Shown: in pieces, positions 215-16,056 of the stretch
Position numbering within the stretch: position 1 is the stretch's first letter
How the letters are laid out: every line of letters begins with the position of its first letter
Source of the DNA: Candidatus Methanomethylophilaceae archaeon
GTDB lineage: Archaea; Thermoplasmatota; Thermoplasmata; Methanomassiliicoccales; Methanomethylophilaceae
Length of the DNA stretch: 16,187 nucleotides
Assembly (NCBI GenBank): GCA_034006405.1
Contig: JAVESW010000020.1
Location: 1 to 16,187, forward strand
Reading direction: 5' to 3'
The notes under the pieces: model-generated
What the model saw: the letters and a program-made list of their open reading frames with translations, nothing else
Database searches by the model: none
What the model was told of the DNA's origin: nothing
Program-made: the position numbers and the translations under genes

Positions 215-1183
215 CTAAACAGCGACAAACATTTCCGATTTATTTGTTAATGTAGTTATTATAATACATATAATTTGGTATTCAAAAATGCGACTAAATA
301 CCTGCATCAAAATAACCAACGAGGAAGGAAAAACCCTCAACGGCATCGCCGAAAACCCCGGCTTCATCAGCCCCACCGACCTCATCACCGCCTGGGTCCA
401 CCCCCCCATCTGCAAAAAGGCAACATACGGCGAACCGTCCCCTGACCACGTCGCCGAACGGACGACATCATAATAATGACGCGAATATCTTAAGGGGACC
501 TGCTTCCCTTCCGGAAGATTTGCCACACTATGAAGGATGAGGATCTTTTCCCAGAACGTTCGTTCGGGATGTACGGTTAAAACATCGGTTGACTTTTGCC
601 CGAACAGGTTCGGATATTTTTCGGCAGAATACGGCTGGATCATCTCCCAGCCGGCTGGAGTGCATGCTGCAAGAGGACCTATCTCCAGACGTATCTCCTG
701 AAGGATCGATGCATCGGAAAAACCATTTGGATACCTGAAGATTATGGTCTGCTTATCATTATCCAGGATCCCCATATCTACCGAAATGCCAAGTTCCTCT
801 GACAAATCATTTCGGATCTGCGGGAGAAAGAGATCCTTGAGAAATATCTCTGCACGGCGGTCAGCCTCTTTGTTAAAGTGATCCTGCCGATTCTTTGTCC
901 GATCCTTCCAGGGTTCGTCTTTTTCATAATCCAGAATACACCAATCAAGAATCAGATCGATATCCTCAGAAAAACGATCAATCAGCCCGTATGCTTTTGA
1001 TAAACTCGTTCCTCCCTTGAAGGTCAGATTATTTTTCCAGGGACATTCGTGAAATAGATAATCCAGCATCCAGCAGACCCAGAAGTCTTTCTCAATAATT
1101 GCCTCATTGATCCCCATTTTGTCGGCAGTGTTCCTGAATAATGCTTCACGATCTTCTGCCGGGCGTTTTGCAATATTTTTCAT
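215..1183 (-). CDS. abiEii: AbiEii/AbiGii-family nucleotidyltransferase toxin (DUF1814) of a type IV toxin-antitoxin system
   Basis: 322-aa ORF with hallmarks of the family: N-terminal EKDFWVCWMLDYLF, the nucleotidyltransferase motif FKGGTSLSKAYGLIDRFSEDIDL, and a C-terminal RYSRHYYDV. Its start lies 6 nt after the stop of the upstream antitoxin-like gene on the same strand. The last ~25 aa (AT-rich, IICIIITTL...) may be read-through rather than true coding. Confidence 0.75.
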   Translation of the reverse strand: MKNIAKRPAEDREALFRNTADKMGINEAIIEKDFWVCWMLDYLFHECPWKNNLTFKGGTSLSKAYGLIDRFSEDIDLILDWCILDYEKDEPWKDRTKNRQDHFNKEADRRAEIFLKDLFLPQIRNDLSEELGISVDMGILDNDKQTIIFRYPNGFSDASILQEIRLEIGPLAACTPAGWEMIQPYSAEKYPNLFGQKSTDVLTVHPERTFWEKILILHSVANLPEGKQVPLRYSRHYYDVVRSATWSGDGSPYVAFLQMGGWTQAVMRSVGLMKPGFSAMPLRVFPSSLVILMQVFSRIFEYQIICIIITTLTNKSEMFVAV

Positions 1184-1189
1184 GGTTTT

Positions 1190-1795
1190 TTATGCACATA
1201 TTTGTCTGACCGTTCCGGAGATCCAGACAGATGAGCGCTTTGTGTCCTCTAAGAGGGATGTTTTTTCTCCAGGGGTGAGCCTGTCGGATAATTGTCTGAT
1301 GAATTTTTCATTCATCTTATCTTTTCCGATCGCTTTCAATGCCTGAATGATAAGTGCGGATTTTTCTGAAAGATTTGTGATGTCTTTATTTGATGTATGC
1401 TTGAATTGTATCGTGACATTTCCGTATGCGTATTTTTTGTAGGGGCCGTCGGAAGCATATGTCCATGAGGCGGGGACCTGGGTGGATATTCCGAGCATAT
1501 TGAGGGCAGCATCTTCATAGGGGACAATTGTCCAACCGAAATTGCGTGCAAGAGCTTTTGCTATTTCATGGGGCGAGGGAGCGACGTATTCATTAAGAAA
1601 TGTGTTGTAGGCGGGATATTCGTATATGCCCCACATGATCCGGCGGATCGTTTTGTCTTGAACTAGCCGTGATAATACTTTTTTTATCGTTGGGATCGGG
1701 GCGATGTCGGTAAAATCAGAGATGACGAATATTGTGCCTTTCTTTGATGTGGTTATTCGCTCTTTGATTTTTTCATGATAGGTTTCTTTCCGCAT
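1190..1795 (-). CDS. abiEi: AbiEi-like (DUF6088-type) antitoxin / transcriptional regulator partnered with AbiEii
   Basis: The ORF is open to 1843, but the likely start is the internal Met at 1795 (MRKETYHEKIKERI...). The TIFVISDF...VLSRLVQDKTIRRIMWGIYEYP stretch matches the N-terminal region of AbiEi antitoxins. Gene order (antitoxin immediately upstream, co-directional, 6-nt gap to toxin) is the canonical AbiE arrangement. An AT-rich TATA-like stretch (minus-strand aataatatata, about 1825-1838) sits just upstream. Confidence 0.6.
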   Translation of the reverse strand: MRKETYHEKIKERITTSKKGTIFVISDFTDIAPIPTIKKVLSRLVQDKTIRRIMWGIYEYPAYNTFLNEYVAPSPHEIAKALARNFGWTIVPYEDAALNMLGISTQVPASWTYASDGPYKKYAYGNVTIQFKHTSNKDITNLSEKSALIIQALKAIGKDKMNEKFIRQLSDRLTPGEKTSLLEDTKRSSVWISGTVRQICA

Positions 1796-1975
1796 TATCG
1801 TGCGTATAGTTATGTCACTAAAAGTATATATTATTGGTGACAAGAGGGAGTTTGTAATATGGAGTGGGGATAAGAAAAATCAACCGTGTTCGCCGACTAT
1901 CGGTTGGTTCTCCGATCCAGCCTGACTTTGACAGTTAGCTGAAAGTATCCAGAAGGCCCAACCGATAAAACTGAT

Positions 1976-2504
1976 GTACTTCGATTTCGTGTACGGCATT
2001 TGTGTGAGAGTATGAGAAAAACCAACCGCGAATCGGCGCGAATCCGCCCTTCGGGCGAGATTAATCGGATTTGCTTATCCTCACTCTCGCTCGTTGGGTC
2101 TGGTCGCAAGGCAAATCCTTGCTCCGCTAAGGGCGAGCCTGTCGGCTCACCCCGCACGACCCAACGGCTCGTCCCTTCATCGGGATCGTTCGGGCAAATC
2201 CTGTCGCCGCCCCAGCGGCTCCCATGAGGAAGAGACTCATCGAGCAGTCCTAAATCTGAAAAATGTTCTTTTGCTACCCATCCTGAAATGAGATGGAGAA
2301 GGAAATCATCATTGGGGGGCGCCGGGGCGCCGACAGGATTTGCCCGAACGATCCCGATGAGGGATGAGCAAGACAGCGAAGCTGGATTGCGAAAGTGAGG
2401 ATAAGCAAATCCGATTTTTTTCGCCCGAAGGGCGGATTTGCGCCGATTCGCGGTTGGTTTTATCTCTTGTGTCTACACTAATGCCGTACACGAAATCGAA
2501 GTAC
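1976..2504. repeat. Large imperfect inverted-repeat element: left arm ~1976-2212 and right arm ~2325-2504 around a ~110-bp spacer. Candidate MITE-like or snap-back noncoding element.
   Basis: Seen directly. 1976-1999 (gtacttcgatttcgtgtacggcat) is the exact reverse complement of 2481-2504. aaaaccaaccgcgaatcggcgcgaatccgcccttcgggcga (about 2025-2060) is mirrored at about 2420-2460. cccttcatcgggatcgttcgggcaaatcctgtcg (about 2173-2207) is mirrored at about 2331-2365. All ORFs called across it (1897..2157, 2000..2227, 2094..2291, 2309..2491) are mutually overlapping and low-complexity, consistent with noncoding sequence. Confidence 0.75.
2091..2170. repeat. ~80-bp segment present only in the left arm of the inverted repeat (nested insertion). 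It carries a GC-rich hairpin, gcaaggcaaatccttgc at 2106-2122, that recurs elsewhere in the window.
   Basis: The right arm has only ~24 bp (2365-2388) at the corresponding position. The hairpin core gcaagg-caaaN-ccttgc recurs at 14471-14487 and, reverse-complemented, at 9990-10006. Confidence 0.55.
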
Positions 2505-2560
2505 GTCTTATAATTACGTCAATTTTTTTCGGTTAAGATTGCCTCGCGTAACTCCTATTC

Positions 2561-2570
2561 AAAAAAAAAA
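2561..2570 (-). terminator. T10 tract on the minus strand, about 28 nt downstream of the last minus-strand ORF of the cluster. Archaeal-type poly-T terminator.
   Basis: A10 on the plus strand at 2561-2570 is T10 on the minus strand. Archaeal transcription termination typically uses oligo-T tracts. Confidence 0.45.
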
Positions 2571-2597
2571 CACAAATAAGAGATAGAAGTAGAGAGA

Positions 2598-2834
2598 TCA
2601 ACGCTCCTCATCTAATTCATCTACTCTTACTCTATCAGAAAGGGAACAGCGGTTCATTACCGGATCCCAGATTTCACAGGCATCTTTAAAACAGATTCCA
2701 GGAACCTGATCTAATGTTGCACAGTAACCGAGAGTAAATGGACACAATTTATGATTATTATCGGCAAAGACCATACGATTTGAGATATGGTCATACAGTT
2801 GGAGTCTGCCGTGTTCATCAGTCCATTTACGCAT
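2598..2834 (-). CDS. Small Cys-rich hypothetical protein (78 aa, 5 Cys), last gene of the minus-strand operon
   Basis: Its ATG (reverse complement of 2832-2834) lies immediately after the TGA of the upstream SPFH gene (2838-2840), implying translational coupling. The poly-T terminator follows. No recognisable family; it could be spurious. Confidence 0.35.
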   Translation of the reverse strand: MRKWTDEHGRLQLYDHISNRMVFADNNHKLCPFTLGYCATLDQVPGICFKDACEIWDPVMNRCSLSDRVRVDELDEER

Positions 2835-2837
2835 ATT

Positions 2838-4469
2838 TCATTCCTGTTTCTTCCCGCAGCTTGGACAGAAAACATCTCCGTTTGGAACATTCGCTGAACA
2901 GTATTGACATTGTGTACTTCCTTCAGGAGCGACATTAACAACAACCGGCGCCCCCATGCCCCCTGTAACAACGGTTGCCCCGGGATTTTGAGCCGTAGAG
3001 CGGGCAGTCGCCGTATTCCCCATAGCATTCAGCGCAGAATTCATTACCTCCTTCATCTGCTCGGCATTCTCCTTATATTGACTCTGCATCATCATGTTGA
3101 ATGCCTGCTGATCCTTGATGCGCAATTCGTTCAATTGTTCAACTGATTCAAGTTTGGCACGAGTTGCTAATGCCTCGGCAGCTGCCTTCGGGTCTTTTGC
3201 ATTCATCGCAAGGATCTGTTCTGGCGTCAGGCTGTTTGCTCTCTTTGCAAGTTCAAGCTGAACGAGGGCGCCGACCTTCTGATCATCGACCAGAGAAATG
3301 AGCACTTCGATCGATGCCTCTGAGAGATTTGCGATCTTTTGTCTCTCATCCTCGCGTTTGATCGCCTTGTTTTGTCTTTTGAACTCCAGTAGCTGCTCGA
3401 TCTCCTTGCGGTCTTTTTCCAGTTCGTGATCATGTCTTGCAGAATCACGAGCAAGCTCATGACCTAAATTCGCATCAGCTCTCTGGTTCCCCAATTCCTG
3501 ATCAAGGGATTTTATGGTATGGTCCGCATTAATCTGACCAACGGCATCTTCCGTTCCTGCTTCACGCAGATAGGCTTTCTTTTCATACTCTGCTTTGGCT
3601 TTGCCCACTTCGATCTGCAAACTCTCGCGTGCTCCAAGAACCTCTTTCCAGGCTCCTTCATCAAAACCCACACAGTTCAGATGAGAAATCTCTATACCCC
3701 TGTTACCAAAGTTTGCATTCAGATTTTTCTTGAACTCATTACTCAATTCCTGACTGAGAACTGCATTTCCGTACAGTTCTTCGATATTATATTGGGATAT
3801 TTTATTCTGGGCAATATTTTTGAGTTCTGCATGAATGCAGTTCTCGATGTCCGCAAGACTAACGTGCTGTTCACGTTTCAGATAGTTTTCAAGAAAAGCG
3901 ATCGGATCTTTGATCTGTGCCGTCACTTTACCTGCAGCTCCAACGGATATTGCATTCTTTGAGCGTAACTCACCTTTTGGAATCATGAAGGTGAGAGGAA
4001 TCTCTCCGGCATCAACAAGAATAACCGTTGTTCGCTCATCAAGTCTCAACTGACCAATGGTATCAAAGATGTTTCCAAGATTGTATGCGCCTGCAGGAAG
4101 TGTTCCTTTGTAAATTCCTCCCTGAAGAAGAATGGCTTTTGTTCCCTGTTCTACAGTGAGTCGTTTTGCAAAGACACCTCGGAGATCCTGAATATCAAAT
4201 CTCTGCGCGAAGTCGCCCGGCATTCTCATCCACTGACGATTTTTGCCTAGTTCTTTGGAGGTGTCGGCAATTCGTGTTGTTTGCGGCGATTCCAAGAGCT
4301 TTGCACCGCATTTTCCACAAAATGCAGCTCCCTGATTTAGTTTTGCACCACATACAGGACAGGTGCCACTTTCCGTTCCTCCAAGTCTTTTACCGCACGC
4401 TCCGCAAAACTGACTTCCGGCGGGGTTTTCATGACCACAGGAACAGGTAATTTTTTTATTAAACAGCAT
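2838..4469 (-). CDS. SPFH/Band-7 (stomatin/flotillin-like; Band_7_1 / YdjI-like) protein with N-terminal tandem zinc ribbons and a C-terminal zinc ribbon
   Basis: 543 aa. The N-terminus has three CxxC...CxxC pairs (CSCGHENPAGSQFCGACG, CPVCGAKLNQGAAFCGKCG). The C-terminus has CQYCSANVPNGDVFCPSCG. The central region follows the SPFH pattern (TTVILVDAGEIPLTFMIPKGELRSKNAISVGAAGKVTAQIKDPIAFLENY ... NFGNRGIEISHLNCVGFD), followed by a long E/A/K-rich, flotillin-like coiled coil. Start is ATG at 4467-4469. Confidence 0.6.
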   Translation of the reverse strand: MLFNKKITCSCGHENPAGSQFCGACGKRLGGTESGTCPVCGAKLNQGAAFCGKCGAKLLESPQTTRIADTSKELGKNRQWMRMPGDFAQRFDIQDLRGVFAKRLTVEQGTKAILLQGGIYKGTLPAGAYNLGNIFDTIGQLRLDERTTVILVDAGEIPLTFMIPKGELRSKNAISVGAAGKVTAQIKDPIAFLENYLKREQHVSLADIENCIHAELKNIAQNKISQYNIEELYGNAVLSQELSNEFKKNLNANFGNRGIEISHLNCVGFDEGAWKEVLGARESLQIEVGKAKAEYEKKAYLREAGTEDAVGQINADHTIKSLDQELGNQRADANLGHELARDSARHDHELEKDRKEIEQLLEFKRQNKAIKREDERQKIANLSEASIEVLISLVDDQKVGALVQLELAKRANSLTPEQILAMNAKDPKAAAEALATRAKLESVEQLNELRIKDQQAFNMMMQSQYKENAEQMKEVMNSALNAMGNTATARSTAQNPGATVVTGGMGAPVVVNVAPEGSTQCQYCSANVPNGDVFCPSCGKKQE

Positions 4470-4514
4470 TATAACTCCAATTCAATAAGTAATCTGTTAT
4501 TAGCTCCAGGACAC

Positions 4515-5078
4515 TTAAATTCTAGGCTCCAGAATGAGATTTTCCACCTCAATCTTTGCAGAAGCAATACTTTCATCATCTACCCTTAGTGCTTTCATAA
4601 GACCCAGAATTTTATCATATTCATCAGATGATCCATTATTTGTTGTGGCAAGGATTTCAGTGATCCGCTTTTTTTCGGTTTCTGCCTGAACCTCCGTATT
4701 CTCACGCTCTTTCAACAGCTGATCTACATCGATCTTACTGAATATGTTGTGTTTTTGATGTGCCTGGTCTTTCTTTTCCTCTTTTATCCGTAGAAGATTT
4801 GCGACTGCCATCTGTTTGTTTTCGGTTGCGAGGATCTGCTGGAGGAGTTCATTTTTTATGAGCATTTGATTCGTTACTTGCCGGGCTGCAAACTGAGTTT
4901 CGATTTCTGATGCAGCATTTTTTCCTGCATAGAGATTTGCTTCAATTTTTTCGTCAGCTTCTTTCATTTGTTTCATAAGAGTGGAATATTGGTATTCCAG
5001 CTCAGCGGCCGTTATGCGCAGATCACCAGAGGAGATCTTGTCAAGGCCGTTTTTCCGTCCAAAGATCCCGCGGGCCAT
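4515..5078 (-). CDS. ESCRT-III/Snf7 (CdvB)- or PspA-like small coiled-coil protein, paralog 2
   Basis: 187 aa, starting MARGIFGRK (compare MxxFGK/MGIFSR N-termini of Snf7 and PspA). Predicted long helical hairpin, then an acidic C-terminus with an amphipathic helix (DEYDKILGLMKALRVDDESIASAKIEVENL) resembling a MIT-interacting motif. The ATG sits 2 nt after the stop of the upstream paralog, so the two are coupled. Assigned from architecture only. Confidence 0.45.
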   Translation of the reverse strand: MARGIFGRKNGLDKISSGDLRITAAELEYQYSTLMKQMKEADEKIEANLYAGKNAASEIETQFAARQVTNQMLIKNELLQQILATENKQMAVANLLRIKEEKKDQAHQKHNIFSKIDVDQLLKERENTEVQAETEKKRITEILATTNNGSSDEYDKILGLMKALRVDDESIASAKIEVENLILEPRI

Positions 5079-5080
5079 TT

Positions 5081-5698
5081 TTAGAACTCACTTTTTTCTA
5101 AGGATTTTTCGATGTCTTTCTCGATCGAGAGCATGCTTTCCGCTTCGGATACATTCATACTGCCTGCCTCAACACTGTTCCAGATATCAAACATCTGCCT
5201 TTCTCCTTCGTCAACATCAGAATCAGAAGCCGTGGTTTCGTCAAGTGCAACGATGTTGTTGAGATTTTCGAGAACTTTCTCAAAATTATTCCCGGACAGG
5301 TTGACTTTGATGAGGGACTCCTCGAAGCTCTTAGGAGAGAGACTCTGAATTGTTTTCCAGATCTGAGTGTTCTCCAGATCACGCTGATACGTTTTGAGGA
5401 TGAGGAGGTTGGACACAAACATGTACTGTTTGTGTAAGGTCAGGAAGTTCTTGATTTTGAGTTTTCCGCTCATATCAAGTTGTTTTAACTCCTGCGCGAT
5501 CATCTTTTTCTTGATCAGATCGGCTCCTATACCCTCATTAAAAAGGGATTTTTTCGCTTTTTCAATTGTCTCGATCTCTTTTCTGAGACGATTGATCCTG
5601 ATTTTGAGTCTGAGCTCTTCTTCCTGGAGTTCTGTGCTCGTGAATTTGTCGATCGCAGTATTTTTTTTGAACGGATTTTTCAGTTCCATTTTTGTCAC
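5081..5698 (-). CDS. ESCRT-III/Snf7 (CdvB)- or PspA-like small coiled-coil protein, paralog 1
   Basis: 205 aa. The ORF begins with GTG at 5698 and the first ATG is at 5689 (MELKNPFKK...). It has a basic N-terminal helix (ELRLKIRINRLRKEIETIEKAKK), a second long helix, and a strongly acidic C-terminus (DETTASDSDVDEGERQMFDIWNSVEAGSMNVSEAESMLSIEKDIEKSLEKSEF), typical of ESCRT-III autoinhibitory/MIM tails. A minus-strand TATA-like atttatatc (5722-5730) lies about 25-35 nt upstream. Confidence 0.45.
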   Translation of the reverse strand: MTKMELKNPFKKNTAIDKFTSTELQEEELRLKIRINRLRKEIETIEKAKKSLFNEGIGADLIKKKMIAQELKQLDMSGKLKIKNFLTLHKQYMFVSNLLILKTYQRDLENTQIWKTIQSLSPKSFEESLIKVNLSGNNFEKVLENLNNIVALDETTASDSDVDEGERQMFDIWNSVEAGSMNVSEAESMLSIEKDIEKSLEKSEF

Positions 5699-5828
5699 AA
5701 GGATTTCATTGGTTTTTCATCGATATAAATCTATTCTCCAAAACGGATTATAAATATAATAACCTTAAAATCGAATGTCCAATGTGGTGATAGAAATATA
5801 TAGTCATAAAACATATTCCTTATTTAAT
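5699..5828. promoter_or_regulatory. AT-rich divergent promoter region between the minus-strand ESCRT-III-like/SPFH operon and the plus-strand TPR/MIT-AAA/Sel1 operon
   Basis: TATA-like boxes on both strands (5722-5730 for the minus operon; ttataaatataat at 5748-5760 and gaaatatatag at 5794-5804 for the plus operon). Their spacing is consistent with leaderless or short-leader archaeal transcripts starting at 5689/5698 and at 5775 or 5829. Confidence 0.4.
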
Positions 5829-6344
5829 ATGGATTATCTGATTTTGGTAGATTATCAGTCCGATGCGGAGCGTAAACGGATAGATTACGCTATTGAACGC
5901 TGGAAGGATAAGGGGAAAATACATAAAACGAAAGGAACGGTGATCCATTATGCCGGAGATGATGTGGATGATTTTCTTGATGATCTTTATTCCCGTCTGA
6001 GTGTTGGAACCGGATCCGTTCATATTTTTGCAGGAGACATCTATTCTCCTGATATCAATGAGCAAACAACCCAGCTGAAATATACTACGACTATAGATTC
6101 AACTGCGGTTGAGAATTTCCTGAAATATCTCATGAATAAACTCGGGGCTTCGTTCGAAGGAACAAAACAGGGAATCAAATCATATACCGCATACACAAAG
6201 AAAGGACAGGCAGGGATCGATGTTACTTTAACGGCTGGAGATAAGACGGCTGTTTTAGTTGTTGTGCGGGGGTACGGGGACGTAGTTTCGTTTATTGCTG
6301 GGAGAATCGATAAGGAACTGAAGGTTTTCCTAGAGGTAGAGTGA
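5775..6344 (+). CDS. Hypothetical protein, first gene of the plus-strand operon
   Basis: 189-aa ORF. An alternative leaderless start at ATG 5829 (MDYLILVDYQSD...) is equally plausible. The stop (6342-6344) lies 3 nt before the next ATG (6348). No family recognised; the N-terminal YLILVDYQSDAERKRIDYAIERW has only a faint Cas2-like flavour. Confidence 0.55.
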   Translation: MSNVVIEIYSHKTYSLFNMDYLILVDYQSDAERKRIDYAIERWKDKGKIHKTKGTVIHYAGDDVDDFLDDLYSRLSVGTGSVHIFAGDIYSPDINEQTTQLKYTTTIDSTAVENFLKYLMNKLGASFEGTKQGIKSYTAYTKKGQAGIDVTLTAGDKTAVLVVVRGYGDVVSFIAGRIDKELKVFLEVE

Positions 6345-6347
6345 ACA

Positions 6348-7082
6348 ATGATAAAAACTGAACGCTATCAAATTTTGTACAATGAAGGCAGAATGAATTT
6401 GAACAGAGGAAGATACACGGATGCTCTCAAATCATTTGAAAATGCAAGACGCGAATTGGATAATTCATATGTATATTCCGGAATTGGGCGTGCATATTAT
6501 GGTCTTGGAAAATACAGCGATGCTCTGAAAAATTTTGAAATAGCATGCATGAGATACTCTGGAAATATTCAGGCAACTCACTGGATGGCAAAGACTCTCG
6601 GAAAAATGAAGCGCTATAACGAGGCTGAAACACTGTTTAATGTGGTGTTGAGAAGATTAGGGAACGGGCCTGTAAATTTCTATCAGGAAGTCTTTGCCGA
6701 CTATGAAGATATGAAAAATGAAAGAGCTGGAATCAAACCTAGGGATTCGTTTTCTCAACCTCTGATGTCATATTCTTTGAACAAAGATTCGTCTACAAAA
6801 ATAATTTTCAACGGTGATATTTCTGCCCCTGTAAATATTGGGGGAGTCCAGGCAACTGATAACGCAATACTGAATCGTCCGGTAATAATGAGAGAGCCCG
6901 GTACTGGCTGCAATGTCCCAATTGAACAAATCATCCAAAGATCCGAAGAGCGAAATACCGTGGATATAAAACCAACAGGTATCCTTTCACGTATTATTAA
7001 GAAAGAAACGTGTGCGAATTGTGGGGCACCGACTCAGGAAGATCAACACTATTGTAACAAGTGCGGGAGGAAACTCCAATGA
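6348..7082 (+). CDS. TPR-repeat protein with a conserved C-terminal linker motif (GGVQATDNAILNRPV) and a C-terminal zinc ribbon (CANCG...YCNKCG)
   Basis: 244 aa. The N-terminal ~120 aa hold three TPR-like units (YTDALKSFENA..., YSDALKNFEIA..., YNEAETLFNVV...). The C-terminal CxxC-x10-CxxC motif is at the end. Its TGA forms an ATGA overlap with the downstream AAA ATPase start. Confidence 0.75.
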   Translation: MIKTERYQILYNEGRMNLNRGRYTDALKSFENARRELDNSYVYSGIGRAYYGLGKYSDALKNFEIACMRYSGNIQATHWMAKTLGKMKRYNEAETLFNVVLRRLGNGPVNFYQEVFADYEDMKNERAGIKPRDSFSQPLMSYSLNKDSSTKIIFNGDISAPVNIGGVQATDNAILNRPVIMREPGTGCNVPIEQIIQRSEERNTVDIKPTGILSRIIKKETCANCGAPTQEDQHYCNKCGRKLQ

Positions 7083-8248
7083 AAATCGATCTCAGCGGAC
7101 CTCTATATGATGCCCTGAAAAAAGCCACCGCAGAGTATGCATCCCTGATTGAGAAAAATGACCTTCCCGGAGCCACAAAAAAAGCTGCTGAGATCGCGAG
7201 GTTCTATCATGAACTTGCAAACATGAATCCCGTGAACAAAAAAGAATATCTCGAGCGTGCAGCAAAATGGGAGAGAGTATCATCTGGAAAAATACGATCA
7301 AAACAAAAACCGTCCCAGTCACCTCATACTGAAACCGAGAAAGAAGAGGAAAATGAAATGAGCCAAAAAGCCTCCTCTCTTATCAAGACCTCCAATGTCA
7401 AATGGTCCGATATCGGCGGGCTTGATTCTGTAAAAAAACTGATGATGGAAACGGTGGTGATCGCAGGTCTCCAAAAACCCGAGTCCATCAAACCCTGGAA
7501 AGGCATTCTTCTCTTTGGACCTCCGGGGACCGGGAAAACCCTTCTTGCGGCTGCGGCGGCAGGAAGTCTGCATGCAACCTTCTATGATGTGAAATCGGAG
7601 AGTGTGCTCTCAAAATATTTCGGTGAATCTTCAAAACTGATTTCTGCGCTCTACAACTCGGCAAGAGATCACTCCCCCTCGATCGTTTTCATTGATGAGT
7701 TCGATGCTCTCAGTCAGTCCCGGGACGGGGAAACAAGCGAGGCGACGCGTAAAGTCCTCTCCAGCCTCCTTACAGAATTGGATGGGCTTTCCGACAAGAA
7801 AAGTGATCAGCTTCTCCTCACTCTTGCAGCGACAAATACCCCGTGGGATCTGGATACAGCAGTTTTATCCCGTTTTCCACGGCGGATCTATGTTCCTCTT
7901 CCGGATCAGAAAGCGTGTAAGGAGATCATAAAGATCCAGACAAAAGGCATGGACATCTCAGGAGTTTCTCTTGAGAGCATTTCCGAAAAGTGTGCGGAGA
8001 TGCTCTACTCAGGACGGGATATTTCCAACTTCTGTCAGCAGGCGATATGGACGATGATCCATAGAGTGAACCCAGATCTCTACAAAATGGCTGAATTATC
8101 ATTTGATGAACTGAAAATGCGGAATTTGCAGACGATCCCTCTTGCTGATGATGATTTTCGTGAAGCTTTTATGAAGATCCGCTCACCAATAACAAAAAAT
8201 AAGATTGAACAATACGAACAATGGAACGATGAGTGTGGTGAAGTGTAA
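7079..8248 (+). CDS. Vps4/CdvC-like meiotic-clade AAA+ ATPase with an N-terminal MIT domain
   Basis: The ORF track starts at GTG 7061, but ATG 7079 has a strong GGAGG at 7066-7070 and forms an ATGA overlap with the upstream stop. The N-terminal ~70 aa (LYDALKKATAEYASLIEKNDLPGATKKAAEIARFYHELANMNPVNKKEYLERAAKWERV) fit the three-helix MIT pattern of Vps4. The AAA core has Walker A GPPGTGKT and Walker B IVFIDEFDAL, and the Vps4/katanin-specific stretch LAATNTPWDLDTAVLSRFPRRIYVPLPD (compare Vps4 [28 protein letters not shown]). Confidence 0.85.
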   Translation: MKIDLSGPLYDALKKATAEYASLIEKNDLPGATKKAAEIARFYHELANMNPVNKKEYLERAAKWERVSSGKIRSKQKPSQSPHTETEKEEENEMSQKASSLIKTSNVKWSDIGGLDSVKKLMMETVVIAGLQKPESIKPWKGILLFGPPGTGKTLLAAAAAGSLHATFYDVKSESVLSKYFGESSKLISALYNSARDHSPSIVFIDEFDALSQSRDGETSEATRKVLSSLLTELDGLSDKKSDQLLLTLAATNTPWDLDTAVLSRFPRRIYVPLPDQKACKEIIKIQTKGMDISGVSLESISEKCAEMLYSGRDISNFCQQAIWTMIHRVNPDLYKMAELSFDELKMRNLQTIPLADDDFREAFMKIRSPITKNKIEQYEQWNDECGEV

Positions 8249-8250
8249 AG

Positions 8251-9864
8251 ATGGGATTTAGCTTTTTTAATAAGGAAAAACGAGCAGCGGAACAGTACAC
8301 GAAAGCAGCAGAACAGGGAGATGCACGTGCACAATTCAATCTTGGAGTGTGCTATGCCCTTGGGATGGGGGTGGAGAAAGACCAGAAAAAAGCGGTATAT
8401 TGGTACACGAAAGCAGCAGAACAGGGACATGCAGATGCACAAAATTATCTCGGGTTGTACTATGATTTTGAGGATGAGGAGAAGGATAGGGAGGAGAAAG
8501 AATGGGTTTCCAGTACAAGAGCAAGGGCAGAACAGGGAGATGCTGATACACAAAATCATCTCGGGATGTGCTATGACTTTGAGATGGGGGTGAAGAAAGA
8601 CCAAAAAAAAGCGGTATATTGGTACACAAAAGCAGCGGAGCAGGGAAATGCGTTTGCACAAAATTTTCTCGGTGAGCACTATAAGGGGGGTGTGGGAGTG
8701 GAAAAAGACCAGAAAAAAGCGGTATATTGGTACACAAAAGCAGCAGACCAGGGAGATGCACGTGCGGGATATGCACGTGCACAAGTCAATCTCGGGGTGT
8801 GCTATGAGAGGGGTGTGGGGGTGGAGAAAGACCCGAAAAAAGCGATATATTGGTACATGAAAGCAGCAGAACAGGGAGATGCTGATGCACAAGTCAATCT
8901 CGGGGTGTGCTATGAGAGGGGTGTGGGGGTGGAGAAAGACCCGAAAAAAGCGGTGGAGTGGTGGACAAAAGCAGCAGAACCACGCCCAACATTATCGAGA
9001 GATGTAGTAGACCCGGGAAATGAAGAGGCACAAACCAATCTCGGGTGGTGCTATGAAAATGGGGTGGGTGTAGAAAAAGACCAGAAAAAAGCGGTGTATT
9101 GGTACACAAAAGCAGCAGACGAGGGAGGTGAACGTGCAGGATATGCACGTGAGGGATATGCACGTGCACAAAATAATCTCGGGTTGTGCTATGAAAATGG
9201 GGTGGGGGTGGAGAAAGACCAGAAAAAAGCAGTATATTGGTACACGAAAGCAGCAGAGCAGGGAAATGCAATGGCACAAGATAATCTTGGGAGGTGCTAT
9301 GAGAGGGGTGTGGGGGTGGAGAAAGACCTGAAAAAAGTTGTATATTGGTACACAAAAGCAGCGGAGCAGGGACATGCTGATGCACAATTCAATCTCGGGT
9401 CGTGCTATGAGAATGGGGTGGGTGTGGAAAAAGATCTGAAAAAAGCGGTGATGTGGTTTACCAAAGCAGCGGAGCAGGGAAATGCACGTGCACAAACTAA
9501 TCTAGAGTTGTGTTATAAGAATGGGGTGGAAAAAGACCAGAAAAATGCGGGATATGGTTACACGAAAGAAGCAGAACAAGGAGATGCTGATGCACAAACC
9601 AATCTCGGGTTGTGCTATGAATTGGGGGAGGCGGTAGAAAAAGACCTGAAAAAAATTGTGTACAATGTAAACTATTTTTCGGCGGAAAAAATAATTCAAG
9701 GAAATATCGGTGTCTATGCAACAGATGATGCGATCGTCCATCGTCCGGTTGTGGGTGAGAAGGGATCAGATGATCCGAAAAATATCTTTTGCCCGTATTG
9801 CGGCAGACAACTTCCAGACGATGCAAGATTCTGCACTGGGTGCGGAAAACAAATTAGTGGATAA
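8251..9864 (+). CDS. Sel1-repeat (SLR) protein with about 13 tandem repeats, the conserved linker motif (GVYATDDAIVHRPV) and a C-terminal zinc ribbon (CPYCGRQLPDDARFCTGCG)
   Basis: 537 aa. The canonical Sel1 consensus recurs (AQxNLGxCYExGxGVEKDxKKAVYWYTKAAEQGxAxAQ). Its ATG is 3 nt after the AAA ATPase stop, so they are coupled. The many antisense ORFs over this region are artefacts of the DNA-level tandem repeat. Confidence 0.85.
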   Translation: MGFSFFNKEKRAAEQYTKAAEQGDARAQFNLGVCYALGMGVEKDQKKAVYWYTKAAEQGHADAQNYLGLYYDFEDEEKDREEKEWVSSTRARAEQGDADTQNHLGMCYDFEMGVKKDQKKAVYWYTKAAEQGNAFAQNFLGEHYKGGVGVEKDQKKAVYWYTKAADQGDARAGYARAQVNLGVCYERGVGVEKDPKKAIYWYMKAAEQGDADAQVNLGVCYERGVGVEKDPKKAVEWWTKAAEPRPTLSRDVVDPGNEEAQTNLGWCYENGVGVEKDQKKAVYWYTKAADEGGERAGYAREGYARAQNNLGLCYENGVGVEKDQKKAVYWYTKAAEQGNAMAQDNLGRCYERGVGVEKDLKKVVYWYTKAAEQGHADAQFNLGSCYENGVGVEKDLKKAVMWFTKAAEQGNARAQTNLELCYKNGVEKDQKNAGYGYTKEAEQGDADAQTNLGLCYELGEAVEKDLKKIVYNVNYFSAEKIIQGNIGVYATDDAIVHRPVVGEKGSDDPKNIFCPYCGRQLPDDARFCTGCGKQISG

Positions 9865-10474
9865 TTATTCCATCTTTATCCCGTCATGTTTTTGCCTGCT
9901 CTCCTCGCGGCGTGTCTTTCTTACAATGACTGGGTTCAGCATACACAAACGCTGCATCCTGGAGCAAAGCGAGCGAAACGAAGCGGAAAGCAAGGCTTTG
10001 CCTTGCGCACTGCCTTGTTCAATTTTGAGACCTTTCAGGTCAAGCTGCCTCTGAAATTCCTGCCAAACCAATTTGTCAACGCCTGATTCGGACATGCGTT
10101 CCCGAAATAACCAGATCGTTGAATTGTCAGGTATTTTGTCAGGACACACAAGAGGCCGCAAGCTAGAACTTGCTCACCGTTTCGGGCTAATGCCCTCACT
10201 TACAATGCCAAAAGGAGAGACGATCATAGATTTCACGTTCAACGGCGAGATCAGACAGATTATACCAGACTACCAGAAGCTGAATCTTGAACATGAGTAT
10301 TACATCGACATTGGGATGACCGCCTTTGTCGGATTTGTTCGAATACATGGATTCAAGAAGAGGGCGAAACACATCCCAATCAAGAGTTTTACCAACGTCG
10401 GAGAGACGGTCGCCAAGTTTTTCATAACGCTCGTGATATGCCTGGTTGAGACCAAAACTGCTGAAAGTCCCCAT
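9865..10474 (-). pseudogene. Remnant of an IS5-family (DDE) transposase gene: N-terminal portion only, split across two frames
   Basis: 10196..10474 (-) encodes the InsH-like N-terminal domain (LDWDVFRPLLESMYSNKSDKGGHPNVDVILMFKIQLLVVWYNLSDLAVEREIYDRLSF). 9865..10161 (-) continues in another frame with the IS5 signature PDNSTIWLFRERMSESGVDKLVWQEFQRQLDLKGLKIEQG. Similarity is then lost where the GC-rich hairpin repeat (9990-10006) sits. The catalytic DDE region is absent. Confidence 0.6.
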
Positions 10475-10517
10475 ACATAAGAGCCAACGTACGGAGAGAA
10501 AGTACTTTCTGTCAGAA

Positions 10518-10524
10518 AAAAAGG
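10518..10524 (-). terminator. T7 tract on the minus strand, about 40 nt downstream of the TIR-protein gene stop
   Basis: A7 on the plus strand at 10518-10524. Archaeal oligo-T terminator. Confidence 0.35.
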
Positions 10525-10560
10525 TTGTTAGAAATTCTCTTATTTGTTTCTTTGATGATA

Positions 10561-12897: not shown

Positions 12898-12964
12898 AGT
12901 TTATCATCATATATCTATATTATATCTCAAGGTTATTTTATATTTATTATCAGAATGATTATTA

Positions 12965-13008
12965 TAGAGTCTGTCCAATCGTAATGTGAATCTGTTGGAC
13001 AGACTCTA
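12965..13008. promoter_or_regulatory. Perfect 14-bp inverted repeat (tagagtctgtccaa-N16-ttggacagactcta) in the AT-rich divergent intergenic region between the TIR-protein gene and the Sel1 paralog. Candidate operator.
   Basis: Seen directly at 12965-12978 and 12995-13008. Both flanking genes are transcribed away from it, so it is not a terminator. It is surrounded by TATA-like AT-rich sequence. Confidence 0.35.
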
Positions 13009-13090
13009 CTAAATTATATAAAACACATCAGATATTTAATATGAATAATATACATAATAACTAATATTGATATTATAAGAGGTTATTAAA

Positions 13091-14172: not shown

Positions 14173-14382
14173 TTAGATAATGAGTAATAAATATAGTCTT
14201 TCATACAAAATAGGATTTATGAATACGCCTACGACGATTGCAATGAGGCCGAAGATCGCAATAAGGTCCCCATAGCCGATACGCAGAGCGATACGATATG
14301 CACCCCGCCCAACTGATTCTTTTCTTTTTCGTGTTTTCGTGGATTTTTTTGTGAATTTCGTGTGATGATTTATACCATCCAA
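14173..14382 (-). CDS. Possible small membrane protein (69 aa; basic N-terminus plus one TM helix)
   Basis: ORF only. The K/R-rich N-terminus is followed by LIAIFGLIAIVVGVFINPIL. No clear promoter or RBS. It lies convergent to the Sel1 paralog and could be spurious. Confidence 0.2.
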   Translation of the reverse strand: MDGINHHTKFTKKSTKTRKRKESVGRGAYRIALRIGYGDLIAIFGLIAIVVGVFINPILYERLYLLLII

Positions 14383-14454
14383 AGAATCCCGCTTGAAATG
14401 CGTAGATATGACACAGAAAAGCCGCTGATATTTATCTCAAATATACGATATCTC

Positions 14455-14585
14455 GACTGCGGGCCGACTCGCAAGGCAAAGCCTTGCTCGGCTGAGGCCA
14501 TCCCTTGGGGGCAGCCCGCCTCAGCTAAGATCGCCGGTTATGCCGTCGATCCGCCTCCGCGCCGGATCACAAACACTTCCCGCAC
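14455..14585. repeat. GC-rich structured repeat block in AT-rich surroundings, related to the nested segment at 2091-2170
   Basis: It shares gcaaggcaaagccttgctcggctgagg with 2106-2132 (gcaaggcaaatccttgctccgctaagg). It also contains an internal hairpin: gctgaggc, a loop, then gcctcagc. ORF 14362..14592 across it is low-complexity. Confidence 0.5.
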
Positions 14586-15016: not shown

Positions 15017-15289
15017 TTCTTATCAAATTATCAATAACTGATAAAATCGAATTGTACGAGTTGTTTTTAATATCATAAGATAAACTTGTTTTTAAATACA
15101 AATATATATGGTGCTTATTGGGGTATCCTAATTATAGATTACAGCACACGATGATGAAATATCTCTCACCTAAATTAGGATGATTGTGAGAGAGAGATAA
15201 TATAATAAAAATAATCCGTGATGATACATCTTGCGTCCATTTTTTCATATATCCAATGCACAAAGAAACCACACACCCCGAAATCAGAA

Positions 15290-15490
15290 AATGAATAATA
15301 AACAAAAAGAAAAACCCGCACGCGGGTTTGTCCCCAGCATTTTTCCAGACGGCGTGCGATTCCTGCGTAGGCGATCAGCCGGAGCAGAGCACGACGGCGC
15401 AAGGAAAATGCGATTCGCGTTAATTCGCGGAGATTCGCGGTTCTTTTATTTTTGAGCCACACCTAACATTACATGAAATCGAAGTACACT
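15290..15490 (-). repeat. Diverged single-arm copy (minus orientation) of the terminal part of the 1976-2504 inverted-repeat element
   Basis: The reverse complement of 15469-15487 (gtgtacttcgatttcatg) matches the element terminus gtacttcgatttcgtg (1976-1991). The reverse complement of about 15420-15450 (aaagaaccgcgaatctccgcgaatt...) matches aaaaccaaccgcgaatcggcgcgaat (about 2025-2052). The block is GC-rich in AT-rich context and ends with the hairpin cccgcacgcggg plus a T-run on the minus strand (15303-15330). ORFs 15175..15462 (-) and 15231..15455 (+) over it are likely spurious. Confidence 0.5.
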
Positions 15491-16056
15491 TCATAAAACA
15501 ATAACTCCAAAATTCATCCAAAAATATCATCTTGAATCTTCTTATAGCACCCCTCTAAAAACTGCCCGATATAATTTTTATGCGCGGTTAATTTTCTCAC
15601 TCTTATCTGCGAAATCCAAAATAATCGATCATAATTATTCAGAACCTGCCGTTTCGTAATGAATTTCTATCTATATATTAATGCCTCATCTCACCAAACA
15701 CTATTCTAAAATTCCTATCGTACAAAAAATATGCATATATTTATACGTATCGAATTGAATTTTATATATGTAATGTTAAATTATAACTCAATTTATGAAT
15801 TATCAAAAAACAGCGTCTTAAATGATCAAATACTAAACGTAAATCTTGAAGGTATTGGATTGATATTTCCAGATGTAAGTCCCGAACCAATCATCAAAAT
15901 TCTCATTCCCATATTCATAGGGATAATTGGCATACTGCTTCTACAGTTCCCCAGAACAAACTAGGATCAGGGTCGCACTGAATCTTAGTTATAATCTGGT
16001 TCCCCATTTTGAATATACTACTTTATCCCCCTTCACCCCAAATAGTACCCACACCA

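What the first reader, a model, noticed from the sequence alone, without database searches (positions are those of the whole stretch)
1976..2504. ~530-bp snap-back inverted-repeat element with a nested 80-bp insertion; related copies at three other sites
Near-perfect terminal inverted repeats (24/24 at the tips; long internal matches) flank a ~110-bp spacer. The left arm contains about 80 bp (2091-2170) that the right arm lacks. This segment carries the hairpin gcaagg-caaaN-ccttgc, which recurs at 14471-14487 and, inverted, at 9990-10006 inside the transposase remnant. A diverged single arm of the large element recurs at 15290-15490 on the opposite strand. Together these indicate one or two families of small non-autonomous mobile or structured RNA elements that preferentially occupy intergenic or decaying DNA. 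The element also separates the TA module from the ESCRT-like operon.
Basis: seen in the sequence. Interest (0 to 1): 0.6.

Follow-up and report, generated by a model that had tools for sequence, protein, structure and literature searches.

The report
Archaeal MITE from an IS701-type transposon
The snap-back repeat is real, but it is a worn-out copy of a small non-coding "hitch-hiker" transposon (a MITE) that is abundant in Methanocorpusculum archaea, carries the end sequences of an ISMhu9-like IS701-family insertion sequence, and inserts just behind gene terminators, so it is an ordinary kind of element, although its interior holds unexplained GC-rich hairpin cassettes.

Summary
Window 1973-2507 is a near-perfect inverted repeat (RNA fold -390.7 kcal/mol, z = -27).

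The tips at 1976 and 2504 are not the true ends. Related copies in at least 9 Methanocorpusculum genomes end about 53 nt further out, in 16-bp terminal inverted repeats TAGGAGTTACGCGGTG...CACCGCGTAACTCCTA. There are 77 such pairs. They are often flanked by 6-bp A/T-rich direct repeats (consensus TTNNAA) immediately after T-run terminators.

The same repeats bound 1.06-1.3-kb insertion sequences that encode IS701-family transposases. An intact ISMhu9-like copy (L239 2099-3207) shares its first ~58 nt with the repeat family.

The window copy spans about 1922-2557. It has a good right end, a degenerate left end and no target duplication. It is identical or nearly so (100%, 100% and 99.9%) in three other assemblies, so it is probably immobile.

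The "nested 80-bp insertion" occupies a variable site found throughout the family, which holds 24 to 126 nt. It consists of ~50-nt GC-rich hairpin cassettes with clear stem covariation. These cassettes also explain the hairpins at 9990 and 14471. Their mechanism is unknown.

The arm at 15290-15490 is half of a sister subfamily element.

Verdict: a new member of a known kind.

The parts
1922..1975 (+). Degenerate left terminal region of the MITE. CTGACTTTGACAGT stands in the place of the TIR TAGGACTTACGCGGT, followed by a 16-nt extra block and the IS-left-end-like tract CCCAACCGATAAAACTGAT, which lacks about 13 nt.
   Evidence: Alignment A3. This variant is shared only with L018 7540-7598. Repeat coverage from other genomes starts abruptly at 1972.
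1976..1994 (+). It occupies the position of the subterminal hairpin TTGTACTTTATGAAACCACAGTACAA that lies just upstream of the transposase ATG in the parent IS.
2018..2090 (+). Outer left arm of the internal palindrome (AAACCAACCGCGAATCGGCGCGAATCC ... CCTCACTCTCGC). It includes the GCCC-TTCG-GGC hairpin at 2046-2056.
   Evidence: Inverted repeat I1. Conserved in all full copies (A1).
2091..2172 (+). Variable cassette site, form Y. A palindromic backbone (TCGTTGGGTC ... GACCCAACGGCTCG) carries one type-1 hairpin cassette in its loop: hairpin GCAAGGCAAATCCTTGC at 2106-2122 and second hairpin GGGCGAGCC-TGTC-GGCTCACCC at 2131-2152.
2173..2224 (+). Inner left arm, with the local 5-bp stem GCCGC-CCCA-GCGGC.
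   Evidence: Inverted repeat I2. Compensated arm-to-arm difference.
2225..2312 (.). Central A/T-rich loop. Its sequence is not conserved between subfamilies.
   Evidence: A1.
2313..2363 (+). Inner right arm. Its local stem is the alternative compensated version (GGCGC ... GCGCC on the minus strand).
2365..2388 (-). Variable cassette site, short form X (AATCCAGCTTCGCTGTCTTGCTCA on the minus strand).
2389..2461 (+). Outer right arm of the internal palindrome.
   Evidence: Inverted repeat I1.
2486..2504 (-).
2505..2557 (-). IS-left-end-type terminal region ending in the terminal inverted repeat. The minus strand of 2542-2557 reads TAGGAGTTACGCGAGG, matching the family TIR TAGGAGTTACGCGGTG at 14 of 16 positions.
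   Evidence: Homologous to the first ~58 nt of the intact IS in L239.
2561..2570 (-). T10 run (A10 on the plus strand). This is the oligo-T terminator of the minus-strand operon (78-aa ORF 2598-2834 and the SPFH/zinc-ribbon gene 2838-4469). The MITE end abuts it, as is typical for the family.
9967..10010 (-). A 44-nt hairpin cassette (GCAAGGCAAAGCCTTGC plus TTTCCGCTTCG..CTCGCTTTG on the minus strand) inserted in a DUF772 (IS5/IS1182-like) transposase-remnant repeat. It is absent from six other copies of that repeat.
   Evidence: A2.
14467..14566 (+). Tandem type-1 hairpin cassettes (GCAAGGCAAAGCCTTGC at 14471-14487, followed by TCGGCTGAGG-hairpin-CCGCC units). They belong to a fragment of a second repeat family (class 2, see 14304-14391).
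15282..15496 (+). Half of a subfamily-1b palindromic MITE: one arm with CGCGAAT repeats plus a T module at 15470-15487. It is truncated at the centre of the palindrome and just outside T, so it has no TIR.
   Evidence: alignment A4.

Best explanation
The element is a decayed copy of a MITE, a miniature non-autonomous DNA transposon. The family is abundant in the archaeal genus Methanocorpusculum and derives from an ISMhu9-like insertion sequence of the IS701 family.

Shown:
- Family members are bounded by 16-bp terminal inverted repeats TAGGA(G/C)TTACGCGGTG.
- The same repeats bound 1.06-1.3-kb ISs that encode IS701-family DDE transposases.
- The first ~58 nt of an intact IS, up to the hairpin in front of its start codon, are homologous to the outer ~58 nt of the MITE.
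- Many copies are flanked by 6-bp A/T-rich direct repeats (TTNNAA-like) and sit directly after oligo-T terminators.
- Orthologous sites without the element exist.

Inferred:
- The IS transposase binds the terminal repeats in trans and inserts the element with a 6-bp staggered cut at A/T-rich sites next to terminators. Such sites are harmless to the host.
- The interior is not IS-derived. It is a long palindrome that grew by adding GC-rich hairpins.
- The window copy (about 1922-2557) has one good end, one degenerate end and no target duplication, and it is the same in four assemblies. It is therefore most likely a fixed, immobile relic.
- Its only plausible present effect is as a 636-bp strongly self-pairing spacer between the terminator of the SPFH operon and the promoter of the AbiE toxin-antitoxin operon.
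For: - Copy number and taxonomic range. The tip motif gives 114+ stretches, mostly in at least 9 Methanocorpusculum genomes. The TIR gives 120+ metagenome stretches.
- True ends. Sequence outside the 'tip' is conserved for about 53 nt and then stops at TAGGAGTTACGCGG, right after a gene stop and a T-run. 38 TIR pairs were found in the genome loci and 77 once the metagenome loci were added. Sizes run from 105 to about 1370 bp.
- Target duplication. Exact flanking direct repeats of 4 bp or more occur in 25 of 77 pairs. The mode is 6 bp (15 pairs), against about 1.1 expected when flanks are paired with a different element.
- Flank consensus T6-NN-AA next to the TIR. A T5+ run lies within 16 nt of 51 of 134 ends, against 7 of 134 in a control window further out.
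- Empty sites. L069 is empty where L091 is filled, and L079 is empty where L014 is filled.
- Autonomous ISs with identical TIRs: L190 87-1152, L161 11674-12749, L235 154-1210, L166 744-2045. The first three ORFs pass the NCBIfam equivalog NF049921 'IS701 family transposase' (327-378 bits, cut-off 250); L166 scores 143 bits, below the cut-off. All four hit Pfam DDE_Tnp_1 and DDE_5.
- Low-GC IS copies (L133, L204, L170) and the intact L239 2099-3207 (331-aa transposase P0121, 336 bits) share their left end with the MITE through ...GTTGTACTT.
- The contig carrying L239 continues into MITE-like sequence resembling window 15300-15345.
- NCBI names a 77%-identical fragment from 'Methanocorpusculaceae archaeon Ag1' as 'IS701 family transposase ISMhu9'.
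- ISPlag1, an ISMhu9 relative, has the TIR CAGGACTTACGC... (PMC2464740).
- No coding capacity: the ORFs inside the element have no Pfam hits.
Against: - The window copy itself fails two MITE criteria. Its left TIR is only a weak match (about 10 of 15 positions, plus an insertion), and no target-site duplication flanks it.
- No intact transposase was found in the ~0.6 Mb of Methanocorpusculum genome loci sampled (tblastn). Three IS copies from landfill and digester metagenomes are pseudogenes. Current mobility in the window's genome is therefore unproven.
- The 6-bp duplication differs from the 4 bp I recall for IS701 proper (from memory, not tested).
- The interior palindrome and its hairpins are not explained by the IS origin.
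Confidence: 0.85

Rival explanations
1. The element is a gene for, or part of, a structured non-coding RNA (a long hairpin RNA or a set of small hairpins) that is kept for an RNA-level function such as 3' end protection, antisense regulation or protein binding. On this view its spread is secondary.
For: - Very stable fold.
- The arms are 80-90% conserved between species while the loop is not.
- Local 5-bp stems stay paired through compensated changes even though this breaks arm-to-arm pairing. This holds in 39 of 44 copies, and three further independent compensated variants exist.
- The hairpin cassettes show covariation. 143 of 162 GCAA-NN-N5-NN-TTGC matches are complementary in the variable stem, with 5 stem variants. 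RNAalifold finds 5 of 12 pairs with changes on both sides.
- GCCC-TTCG-GGC tetraloop-type hairpins are present.
Against: - No Rfam family matches. The only hit is a chance mir-616 alignment at 31 bits against a gathering score of 100.
- TIRs, target duplications, homology to the IS end and empty sites already explain the distribution.
- The X-type arm on its own folds no better than shuffled sequence (z = -0.66).
- Copies lie after T-run terminators, so transcription would depend on read-through.
- No promoter or expression data are available.
- Compensated changes in palindromes can also arise at the DNA level by template switching within the hairpin.
Confidence: 0.07
2. The essential mobile units are the ~50-nt GC-rich hairpin cassettes. 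They would be an archaeal analogue of bacterial REP/BIME elements, moved by a single-strand-DNA (HUH/Y1-type) enzyme or by another loop-targeting mechanism. The large snap-back would then be only a platform that accumulated them.
For: - Cassettes are present or absent at the same site in otherwise homologous repeats. The site holds 24-25 nt, a bare 29-30-nt palindrome, or 50-126 nt with 1-3 cassettes.
- A 44-nt cassette sits in the window's DUF772 remnant and is absent from 6 other copies.
- In L021 a type-2 cassette lies inside the loop of a type-1 cassette's second hairpin, in unique intergenic DNA.
- 15 of 114 cassette sites are not next to other repeats.
- First and second hairpins recombine freely.
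- There are 145 copies of the head hairpin in 607 kb, against 3 in 221 kb of unrelated loci.
Against: - No terminal repeats, consistent target duplication or conserved cleavage motif was found.
- The insertion in the DUF772 remnant replaces about 7 nt rather than being a clean insertion.
- No partner enzyme was identified, and none was systematically searched for.
- 99 of 114 cassette sites adjoin other repeats. Spread by gene conversion or template switching between MITE copies is an alternative.
- This rival does not contradict the MITE explanation for the 636-bp element. It concerns only the interior.
Confidence: 0.1
3. The element is a local inverted segmental duplication with no family behind it.
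For: Only the window-internal repeat pattern.
Against: Hundreds of related copies with defined ends exist in many genomes and metagenomes.
Confidence: 0.01

Closest known systems
ISMhu9 (IS701 family, Methanospirillum hungatei JF-1) and its relative ISPlag1 (Planktothrix)
   Same: The TIR signature (T/C)AGGACTTACGC is shared; the ISPlag1 TIR is CAGGACTTACGCAAGC... (PMC2464740). ISs with exactly the window family's TIR encode transposases that pass the NCBIfam IS701 equivalog. NCBI names a Methanocorpusculaceae fragment 'ISMhu9'. The left ~58 nt of the intact IS in L239 are homologous to the MITE end.
   Different: The window element has no transposase and is 636 bp rather than about 1.1 kb. 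Its interior is unrelated to the IS. The flanking duplication in the family is mostly 6 bp. I could not read the ISMhu9 reference sequence itself.
Prokaryotic MITEs in general (for example Correia elements of Neisseria, RUP of pneumococcus, and the Sulfolobus SM1-SM4 and haloarchaeal MITEs listed in reviews of archaeal ISs; named from my own knowledge)
   Same: Small and non-coding, with TIRs borrowed from an IS, target-site duplications, many dispersed intergenic copies and a strongly self-complementary sequence.
   Different: This is a host genus (Methanocorpusculum, Methanomicrobiales) and parent family (IS701/ISMhu9-like) for which the literature searches found no described MITE. The ends are asymmetric in most copies: a long IS-left-end module on one side and a bare TIR on the other. 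There is a marked preference for the 3' side of oligo-T terminators.
Modular extragenic repeats of bacteria: BOX elements (boxA-boxB-boxC) and BIME/REP clusters (from my own knowledge)
   Same: The interior is a mosaic of short GC-rich hairpin modules. These vary in number and order between copies, sit behind genes, and keep their stems paired while the sequence changes.
   Different: The conserved GTAG head of REPs is absent; the conserved head here is GCAA..TTGC. No RAYT-type gene is known or was found. The modules are mostly embedded in TIR-bounded MITEs rather than free-standing. The host is an archaeon.

Membership tests
MITE derived from an IS701-family (ISMhu9-like) insertion sequence | Terminal inverted repeats matching those of an autonomous IS | tested here: met
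   For the family, TAGGA(G/C)TTACGCGGTG bounds both the MITEs and the transposase-encoding ISs. The left ~58 nt are homologous. In the window copy, the right TIR matches at 14 of 16 positions (2542-2557) and the left end is degenerate (1922-1935, about 10 of 15).
MITE derived from an IS701-family (ISMhu9-like) insertion sequence | Target-site duplication flanking the element | tested here: inconclusive
   Met for the family: 25 of 77 pairs have exact direct repeats of 4 bp or more, with a mode of 6 bp (15 pairs, about 1.1 expected). Not met for the window copy: there is no direct repeat around 1922/2557.
MITE derived from an IS701-family (ISMhu9-like) insertion sequence | Small size and no transposase coding capacity | tested here: met
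   636 bp. The internal ORFs (60-86 aa) have no Pfam hits. tblastn with the transposase finds nothing in the window.
MITE derived from an IS701-family (ISMhu9-like) insertion sequence | Many dispersed copies, with presence/absence polymorphism | tested here: met
There are two pairs of filled and empty orthologous sites between species. The window copy itself is fixed: it is 100%, 100% and 99.9% identical in three other assemblies that cover it fully.
MITE derived from an IS701-family (ISMhu9-like) insertion sequence | A cognate active transposase in the same genome or lineage | tested here: inconclusive
   An intact 331-aa gene lies on metagenome contig L239, next to MITE-like sequence. A fragment is annotated in Methanocorpusculaceae archaeon Ag1. 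Copies L133, L204 and L170 are pseudogenes. None was found in the sampled genome loci.
IS701 family (for the parent IS) | DDE transposase matching the curated family model above its cut-off | tested here: met
   NF049921 scores 336.5 bits (P0121) and 327-378 bits (L190, L161, L235) against a cut-off of 250.
Any Rfam RNA family | A covariance-model match at or above the gathering score | tested here: not met
   The only hit with E <= 1 in the whole window is mir-616 at 31.1 bits against a gathering score of 100. It is an alignment to the generic hairpin.
REP/BIME-type extragenic palindromes (for the hairpin cassettes) | Short GC-rich imperfect palindromes, extragenic, in variable clusters | tested here: met
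REP/BIME-type extragenic palindromes (for the hairpin cassettes) | A conserved GTAG-type head and an associated RAYT (Y1 transposase) gene | not tested
   The conserved head seen here is GCAA..TTGC and the linker is TCNGCTRAGG, not GTAG.

The most novel reading that the evidence does not exclude
The ~50-nt GC-rich hairpin cassettes consist of the head hairpin GCAA-NN-loop-NN-TTGC, a conserved linker and a second hairpin that varies in sequence but stays paired. On the most novel reading, they are an independent class of tiny mobile or self-propagating structured elements in an archaeon. They would insert preferentially into the loops of existing hairpins, including each other, MITE palindromes and an IS remnant. 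That would make them an archaeal counterpart of REP/BIME systems, with an unknown enzyme or an RNA- or DNA-hairpin-templated mechanism.
Probability: 0.25. Interest if true: 0.65.

Novelty: new member of a known kind. Interest (0 to 1): 0.35.

Why it matters
As a MITE the element is ordinary. It still has practical and modest biological value.
- It defines a repeat family, apparently undescribed in the searchable literature, that fills intergenic DNA in Methanocorpusculum. This genus of gut and digester methanogens is known mostly from MAGs, where such repeats break assemblies.
- It links that family to an ISMhu9-like IS701 element.
- It shows a clear preference for inserting directly behind archaeal oligo-T terminators, a safe-haven strategy that could be tested experimentally.

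The more interesting lead is secondary: the covarying hairpin cassettes nested in hairpin loops, for which no mechanism is known.

Tried and rejected
- Rfam scan of the whole window at E <= 1: only a chance miRNA hairpin hit.
- IS256-family IS next to the AbiE module in a sister contig (L116, about 10470-11970, 8-bp duplication ACCAGGTG) as parent: rejected because its TIRs are unrelated.
- DUF772 (IS5/IS1182-like) remnant at 9861-10539 as parent: rejected because its ends are unrelated. In L058 it is itself inserted into a MITE end.
- Viral or proviral origin: the TIR has no match in IMG/VR.
- Replication origin (inverted ORB-type repeats): rejected on copy number and on the lack of an ORB-like motif (reasoning only).
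- N-runs inside related loci looked like deliberate masking. They are confined almost entirely to scaffolded UBA MAGs and interrupt repeats, so I take them to be assembly gaps.
- Orientation of copies relative to neighbouring genes, using naive ORF calls: too noisy in this ~50% GC background to use.
- Search for long TIR-bounded elements with ORFs among the genome loci: none found. The parent IS was found only after the metagenome scan.
- Look-up of the contig encoding the 'ISMhu9' fragment P0218: not on record.
- Literature searches for a described MITE in Methanocorpusculum, in Methanomicrobiales, or derived from IS701 in archaea: nothing relevant.
Full report
**The observation**

The inverted repeat is real and far beyond chance. 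Three blocks of arms pair across the element: 1973-2005/2475-2507, 2018-2090/2389-2461 and 2174-2224/2313-2363, at 90-94% complementarity. The first 25 nt inward from 1976 and from 2504 are identical. The central spacer is 88 nt. The left arm holds 82 nt (2091-2172) where the right arm holds an unrelated 24 nt (2365-2388).

As a single strand, the segment I later assign to the whole element (1922-2557) folds at -390.7 kcal/mol, against -203 for shuffles (z = -27). The tip motif occurs three times in the window, against 0.01 expected. The three 'related sites' all exist as described.

**Where the window comes from, and how many copies there are**

Most are from at least 9 Methanocorpusculum genomes, archaeal methanogens of the order Methanomicrobiales. 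The few bacterial hits show no further similarity. Two 'Bacilli' MAG contigs carry the same repeat sequences as the Methanocorpusculum loci (L024 matches M. parvum L006 at the repeat), so they are probably mis-binned.

The window's own genome is not among the species representatives. However, the same 801 bp around the element (window 1850-2650) recur at 100%, 100% and 99.9% identity in three other metagenome assemblies. A fourth, short contig ends inside the element.

**The true ends**

When all tip occurrences are aligned with their flanks, the sequence outside the tip is also conserved, for about 53 nt. It then stops at TAGGAGTTACGCGG, which typically follows a gene's stop codon and a run of T.

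Searching for this outer motif gives 38 inward-facing pairs in the genome loci and 77 when the metagenome loci are included. Their sizes run from 105 bp (L111 4141-4245) to about 1.37 kb, and most are 470-680 bp.

These are 16-bp terminal inverted repeats, TAGGA(G/C)TTACGCGGTG ... CACCGCGTAA(C/G)TCCTA. The other side is a bare TIR. A minority, including the window copy, carry T on both sides.

In the window:
- The right end is intact. The TIR lies at 2542-2557, immediately followed by A10, which is the T10 terminator of the minus-strand operon (78-aa ORF and the SPFH/zinc-ribbon gene).
- The left end is degenerate. CTGACTTTGACAGT (1922-1935) stands where the TIR should be, followed by an extra 16 nt and a shortened flank. 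This variant is shared only with L018.
- Repeat coverage from other genomes accordingly begins abruptly at 1972 and ends at about 2560-2571.

**Evidence for transposition**

With the boundary set at TAGG/CCTA, 25 of 77 pairs are flanked by exact direct repeats of 4 bp or more. The mode is sharp at 6 bp: 15 pairs, against about 1.1 expected when left flanks are paired with the right flanks of other elements. The duplicated hexamers are A/T-rich and resemble TTNNAA (TTTAAA, TTAAAA, TTGAAA, TTAGAA, TTTATT and others).

The oriented flank consensus is T6-NN-AA next to the TIR. A T5+ run lies within 16 nt of 51 of 134 ends, against 7 of 134 in a control window 40-56 nt away.

Two orthologous comparisons show a filled site in one species and an empty site in another. 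In both, the T-run is already present at the empty site (L091 vs L069, L014 vs L079). Insertion therefore targets the A/T-rich stretch directly behind archaeal oligo-T terminators.

**The parent element**

None of the transposase genes near the window fits. The IS256-family IS in the sister contig L116 has different ends. The DUF772 remnant at 9861-10539 is a separate multi-copy repeat.

A metagenome scan with the TIR returned, besides many MITEs, elements of 1.06-1.3 kb with the same TIRs and one long ORF: L190, L161, L235, L166 and L138. Three of these ORFs (L190, L161, L235) pass the curated NCBIfam equivalog 'IS701 family transposase' (NF049921, 327-378 bits against a cut-off of 250). L166 scores 143 bits, below the cut-off. 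All four tested ORFs hit Pfam DDE_Tnp_1 and DDE_5.

Three low-GC copies (L133, L204, L170) and one intact copy (L239 2099-3207, 1109 bp, 331-aa transposase P0121, 336 bits) have a left end that matches the MITE end through about 58 nt. The shared tract is TAGGACTTACGCGGTGTGCTCTCAACCGAAAAGCTCACGTAC.CTCAGGTTGTACTT.

At that point the IS continues with TATGAAACCACAGTACAACCATC-ATG, a small hairpin just before the start codon. The MITE continues with CGATTTCGTGTAC. The short MITE end corresponds to the IS right end (...AACACCGCGTAAGTCCTA).

Three further observations tie the parent to the ISMhu9 group:
- The L239 contig runs on into sequence resembling window 15300-15345, which places this IS in the same kind of genome.
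- NCBI annotates a 77%-identical fragment from 'Methanocorpusculaceae archaeon Ag1' as 'IS701 family transposase ISMhu9'.
- A published ISMhu9 relative, ISPlag1, has the TIR CAGGACTTACGC... (PMC2464740).

L133, L204 and L170 are pseudogenes, and L133 and L204 share a frameshift and stop codons. tblastn finds no transposase in the ~0.6 Mb of sampled Methanocorpusculum genome loci. Whether the window's genome still has an active source is therefore open.

**The interior and the 'nested insertion'**

The interior is not IS-derived. It is a long palindrome whose outermost part (AACCGCGAATC ... GATTCGCGGTT) is also present in short family members.

Between CCTCACTCTCGC and CCCTTCATCGGGA lies a variable site, which takes several forms:
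- X: a 24-25-nt sequence, AATCCAGCTTCGCTGTCTTGCTCA.
- X2: a different 24-25-nt sequence.
- Y0: a bare 29-30-nt palindrome, TCGTTGGGTCTGATCGACCCAACGGCTCG.
- X2 or Y0 with one to three ~50-nt cassettes in the loop, giving 50-126 nt.

Most copies have X on one arm and another form on the other arm. The window has Y with one cassette on the left and X on the right. It belongs to a polymorphic cassette site of the whole family, not to an event in this copy.

**The hairpin cassettes**

Perfect GCAA-NN-loop-NN-TTGC hairpins occur 145 times in 607 kb of Methanocorpusculum loci, against 3 times in 221 kb of unrelated loci. Of 162 matches selected without any pairing requirement on the variable stem positions, 143 are fully complementary. 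Five stem variants are used (AT 46, GC 32, AC 29, GG 27, AG 8).

Two cassette types follow this head:
- Type 1: TC-N-GCT-R-AGG, then a second hairpin whose sequence differs widely but stays paired, then CCGCC.
- Type 2: TCTCCGACTCG, then GGGTCTTCGACCC, then CTCGCTTGAAT.

First and second hairpins occur in many combinations. RNAalifold on 52 distinct type-1 cassettes finds 5 of 12 pairs with changes on both sides.

Evidence that the cassettes move, or are copied, on their own:
- Window 9967-10010 is a 44-nt cassette absent from six other copies of the DUF772 remnant.
- In L021 a type-2 cassette lies inside the loop of a type-1 cassette's second hairpin, in unique intergenic DNA.
- 15 of 114 cassette sites do not adjoin other repeats.

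I found no terminal repeats, no consistent duplication and no partner enzyme, so the mechanism is unexplained.

A related detail concerns the inner 5-bp stem of the big palindrome. It differs between the two arms in a compensated way in 39 of 44 copies (GCCGC..GCGGC versus GGCGC..GCGCC), and three further compensated variants exist. This keeps the local hairpins at the expense of arm-to-arm pairing. It points to a constraint on small hairpins, at the DNA or RNA level, rather than on the long snap-back. The X-type arm on its own folds no better than shuffles (z = -0.66), and the Y-type arm does so only moderately (z = -3.6).

- 15282-15496 is one arm, plus a T module, of a sister palindromic subfamily (1b; complete examples are L056 5537-6018 and L030 4027-4497). 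It is cut at the palindrome centre and just outside T, so it has no TIR.
- 14304-14391 plus 14467-14566 is a fragment of a further family (class 2). Complete members are 700-870-bp palindromes (L083 290-981, L045 5041-5909) that carry the T module at their very tips, repeated CACGAAA motifs and cassettes.

**How the element most likely works**

- Shown: homology to the IS ends, TIRs, target duplications, the terminator-adjacent target, empty sites, abundance and the absence of coding capacity.
- Inferred: an ISMhu9-like DDE transposase recognises the TIRs in trans and integrates the element with a 6-bp staggered cut.

The window copy has lost one TIR and has no duplication, and it is the same in four assemblies. 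It is probably a fixed relic. It lies between the T10 terminator of the SPFH operon and the promoter region of the AbiEi/AbiEii operon (a TATA-like AATAATATATAC near 1825-1850 on the minus strand). There it may act as a self-pairing spacer or insulator. That role is speculation.

**Comparison with known elements, and novelty**

The element behaves like a MITE and meets the family-level criteria for one. The window copy itself is a degenerate member. The parent type is IS701/ISMhu9-like. The literature searches found no description of this repeat family or of IS701-derived MITEs in archaea, and Rfam has nothing.

I file it as a new member of a known kind, with interest 0.35. The most novel reading still open is that the hairpin cassettes are an independent, loop-targeting class of tiny elements, an archaeal analogue of REP/BIME. 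I give that reading a probability of about 0.25.

Noticed in passing
window 9861-10539: The DUF772 (IS5/IS1182-like) 'transposase remnant' is itself a multi-copy ~680-bp repeat. It is 93-95% identical in other Methanocorpusculum genomes, often with two copies per 8-kb locus (L056, L058). In L058 one copy is inserted into the outer end of a snap-back MITE.
   Followed up: partly
window 14304-14391 and 14467-14566; L083 290-981; L045 5041-5909; L075 2220-3961: This is a second repeat family ('class 2'): 700-870-bp palindromes with the same T module at the very tips, flanked by a T-run on one side and an A-run on the other. They contain iteron-like CACGAAA / TTTCGTG repeats, G-rich palindromes (CCCCTGTCCCCC...GGGGGCAGGGG) and a conserved central segment (AGGTGAGTGTATTGGAGTTTATGTCA.TCAAAATAATACGGC). 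In the window the T module is missing between two positions which, in L075, are 12-bp direct repeats (CCAAAGAATCCC). The nature of this family is unknown.
   Followed up: partly
L021 3097-3200: One hairpin cassette is nested inside the loop of another cassette's hairpin, in otherwise unique intergenic DNA just before an A8 run.
   Followed up: partly
window 215-1843 (minus strand): The 'TA module' is an AbiE system. AbiEii is the nucleotidyltransferase toxin (PF08843; PADLOC AbiEii, E = 3e-74). AbiEi is the antitoxin (DUF6088; PADLOC AbiEi, E = 1.4e-64).
   Followed up: yes
window 2838-8248, 8251-9864, 10561-14062: The neighbourhood looks like a defence or stress island rather than a demonstrated ESCRT operon. 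It contains an SPFH/Band-7 protein with N- and C-terminal zinc ribbons. It has an AAA ATPase whose best PADLOC hits are IetA (E = 7e-36), with only a weak Vps4_C hit (E = 5e-4). It also has TPR and Sel1-repeat proteins ending in zinc ribbons, and a TIR-domain TPR protein. The proteins at 4515-5078, 5081-5698 and 5775-6344 have no Pfam or PADLOC hit.
   Followed up: no
L116 about 10470-11970, compared with L115: An IS256-family IS (Transposase_mut/MULE, 8-bp duplication ACCAGGTG) lies just beyond AbiEii in one assembly of this locus but not in another. This is an insertion polymorphism within the population.
   Followed up: partly
L133 813-1171, L204 746-1366, L170 2490-3377: The ISMhu9-like IS copies from landfill and digester metagenomes are pseudogenes. 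L133 and L204 share the same frameshift and stop codons, which suggests that defunct copies were themselves propagated or inherited.
   Followed up: partly
L013, L050, L059, L062, L064, L069, L070, L075, L080, L081, L090: Runs of N (100-330 nt) in scaffolded UBA MAGs fall inside class-2 and cassette repeats. These repeats evidently break short-read assemblies of Methanocorpusculum.
   Followed up: partly
window 8260-9662 and 13343-13773: 108-nt periodic direct repeats (families D1-D8) are simply the Sel1-repeat units of the two Sel1 proteins.
   Followed up: yes
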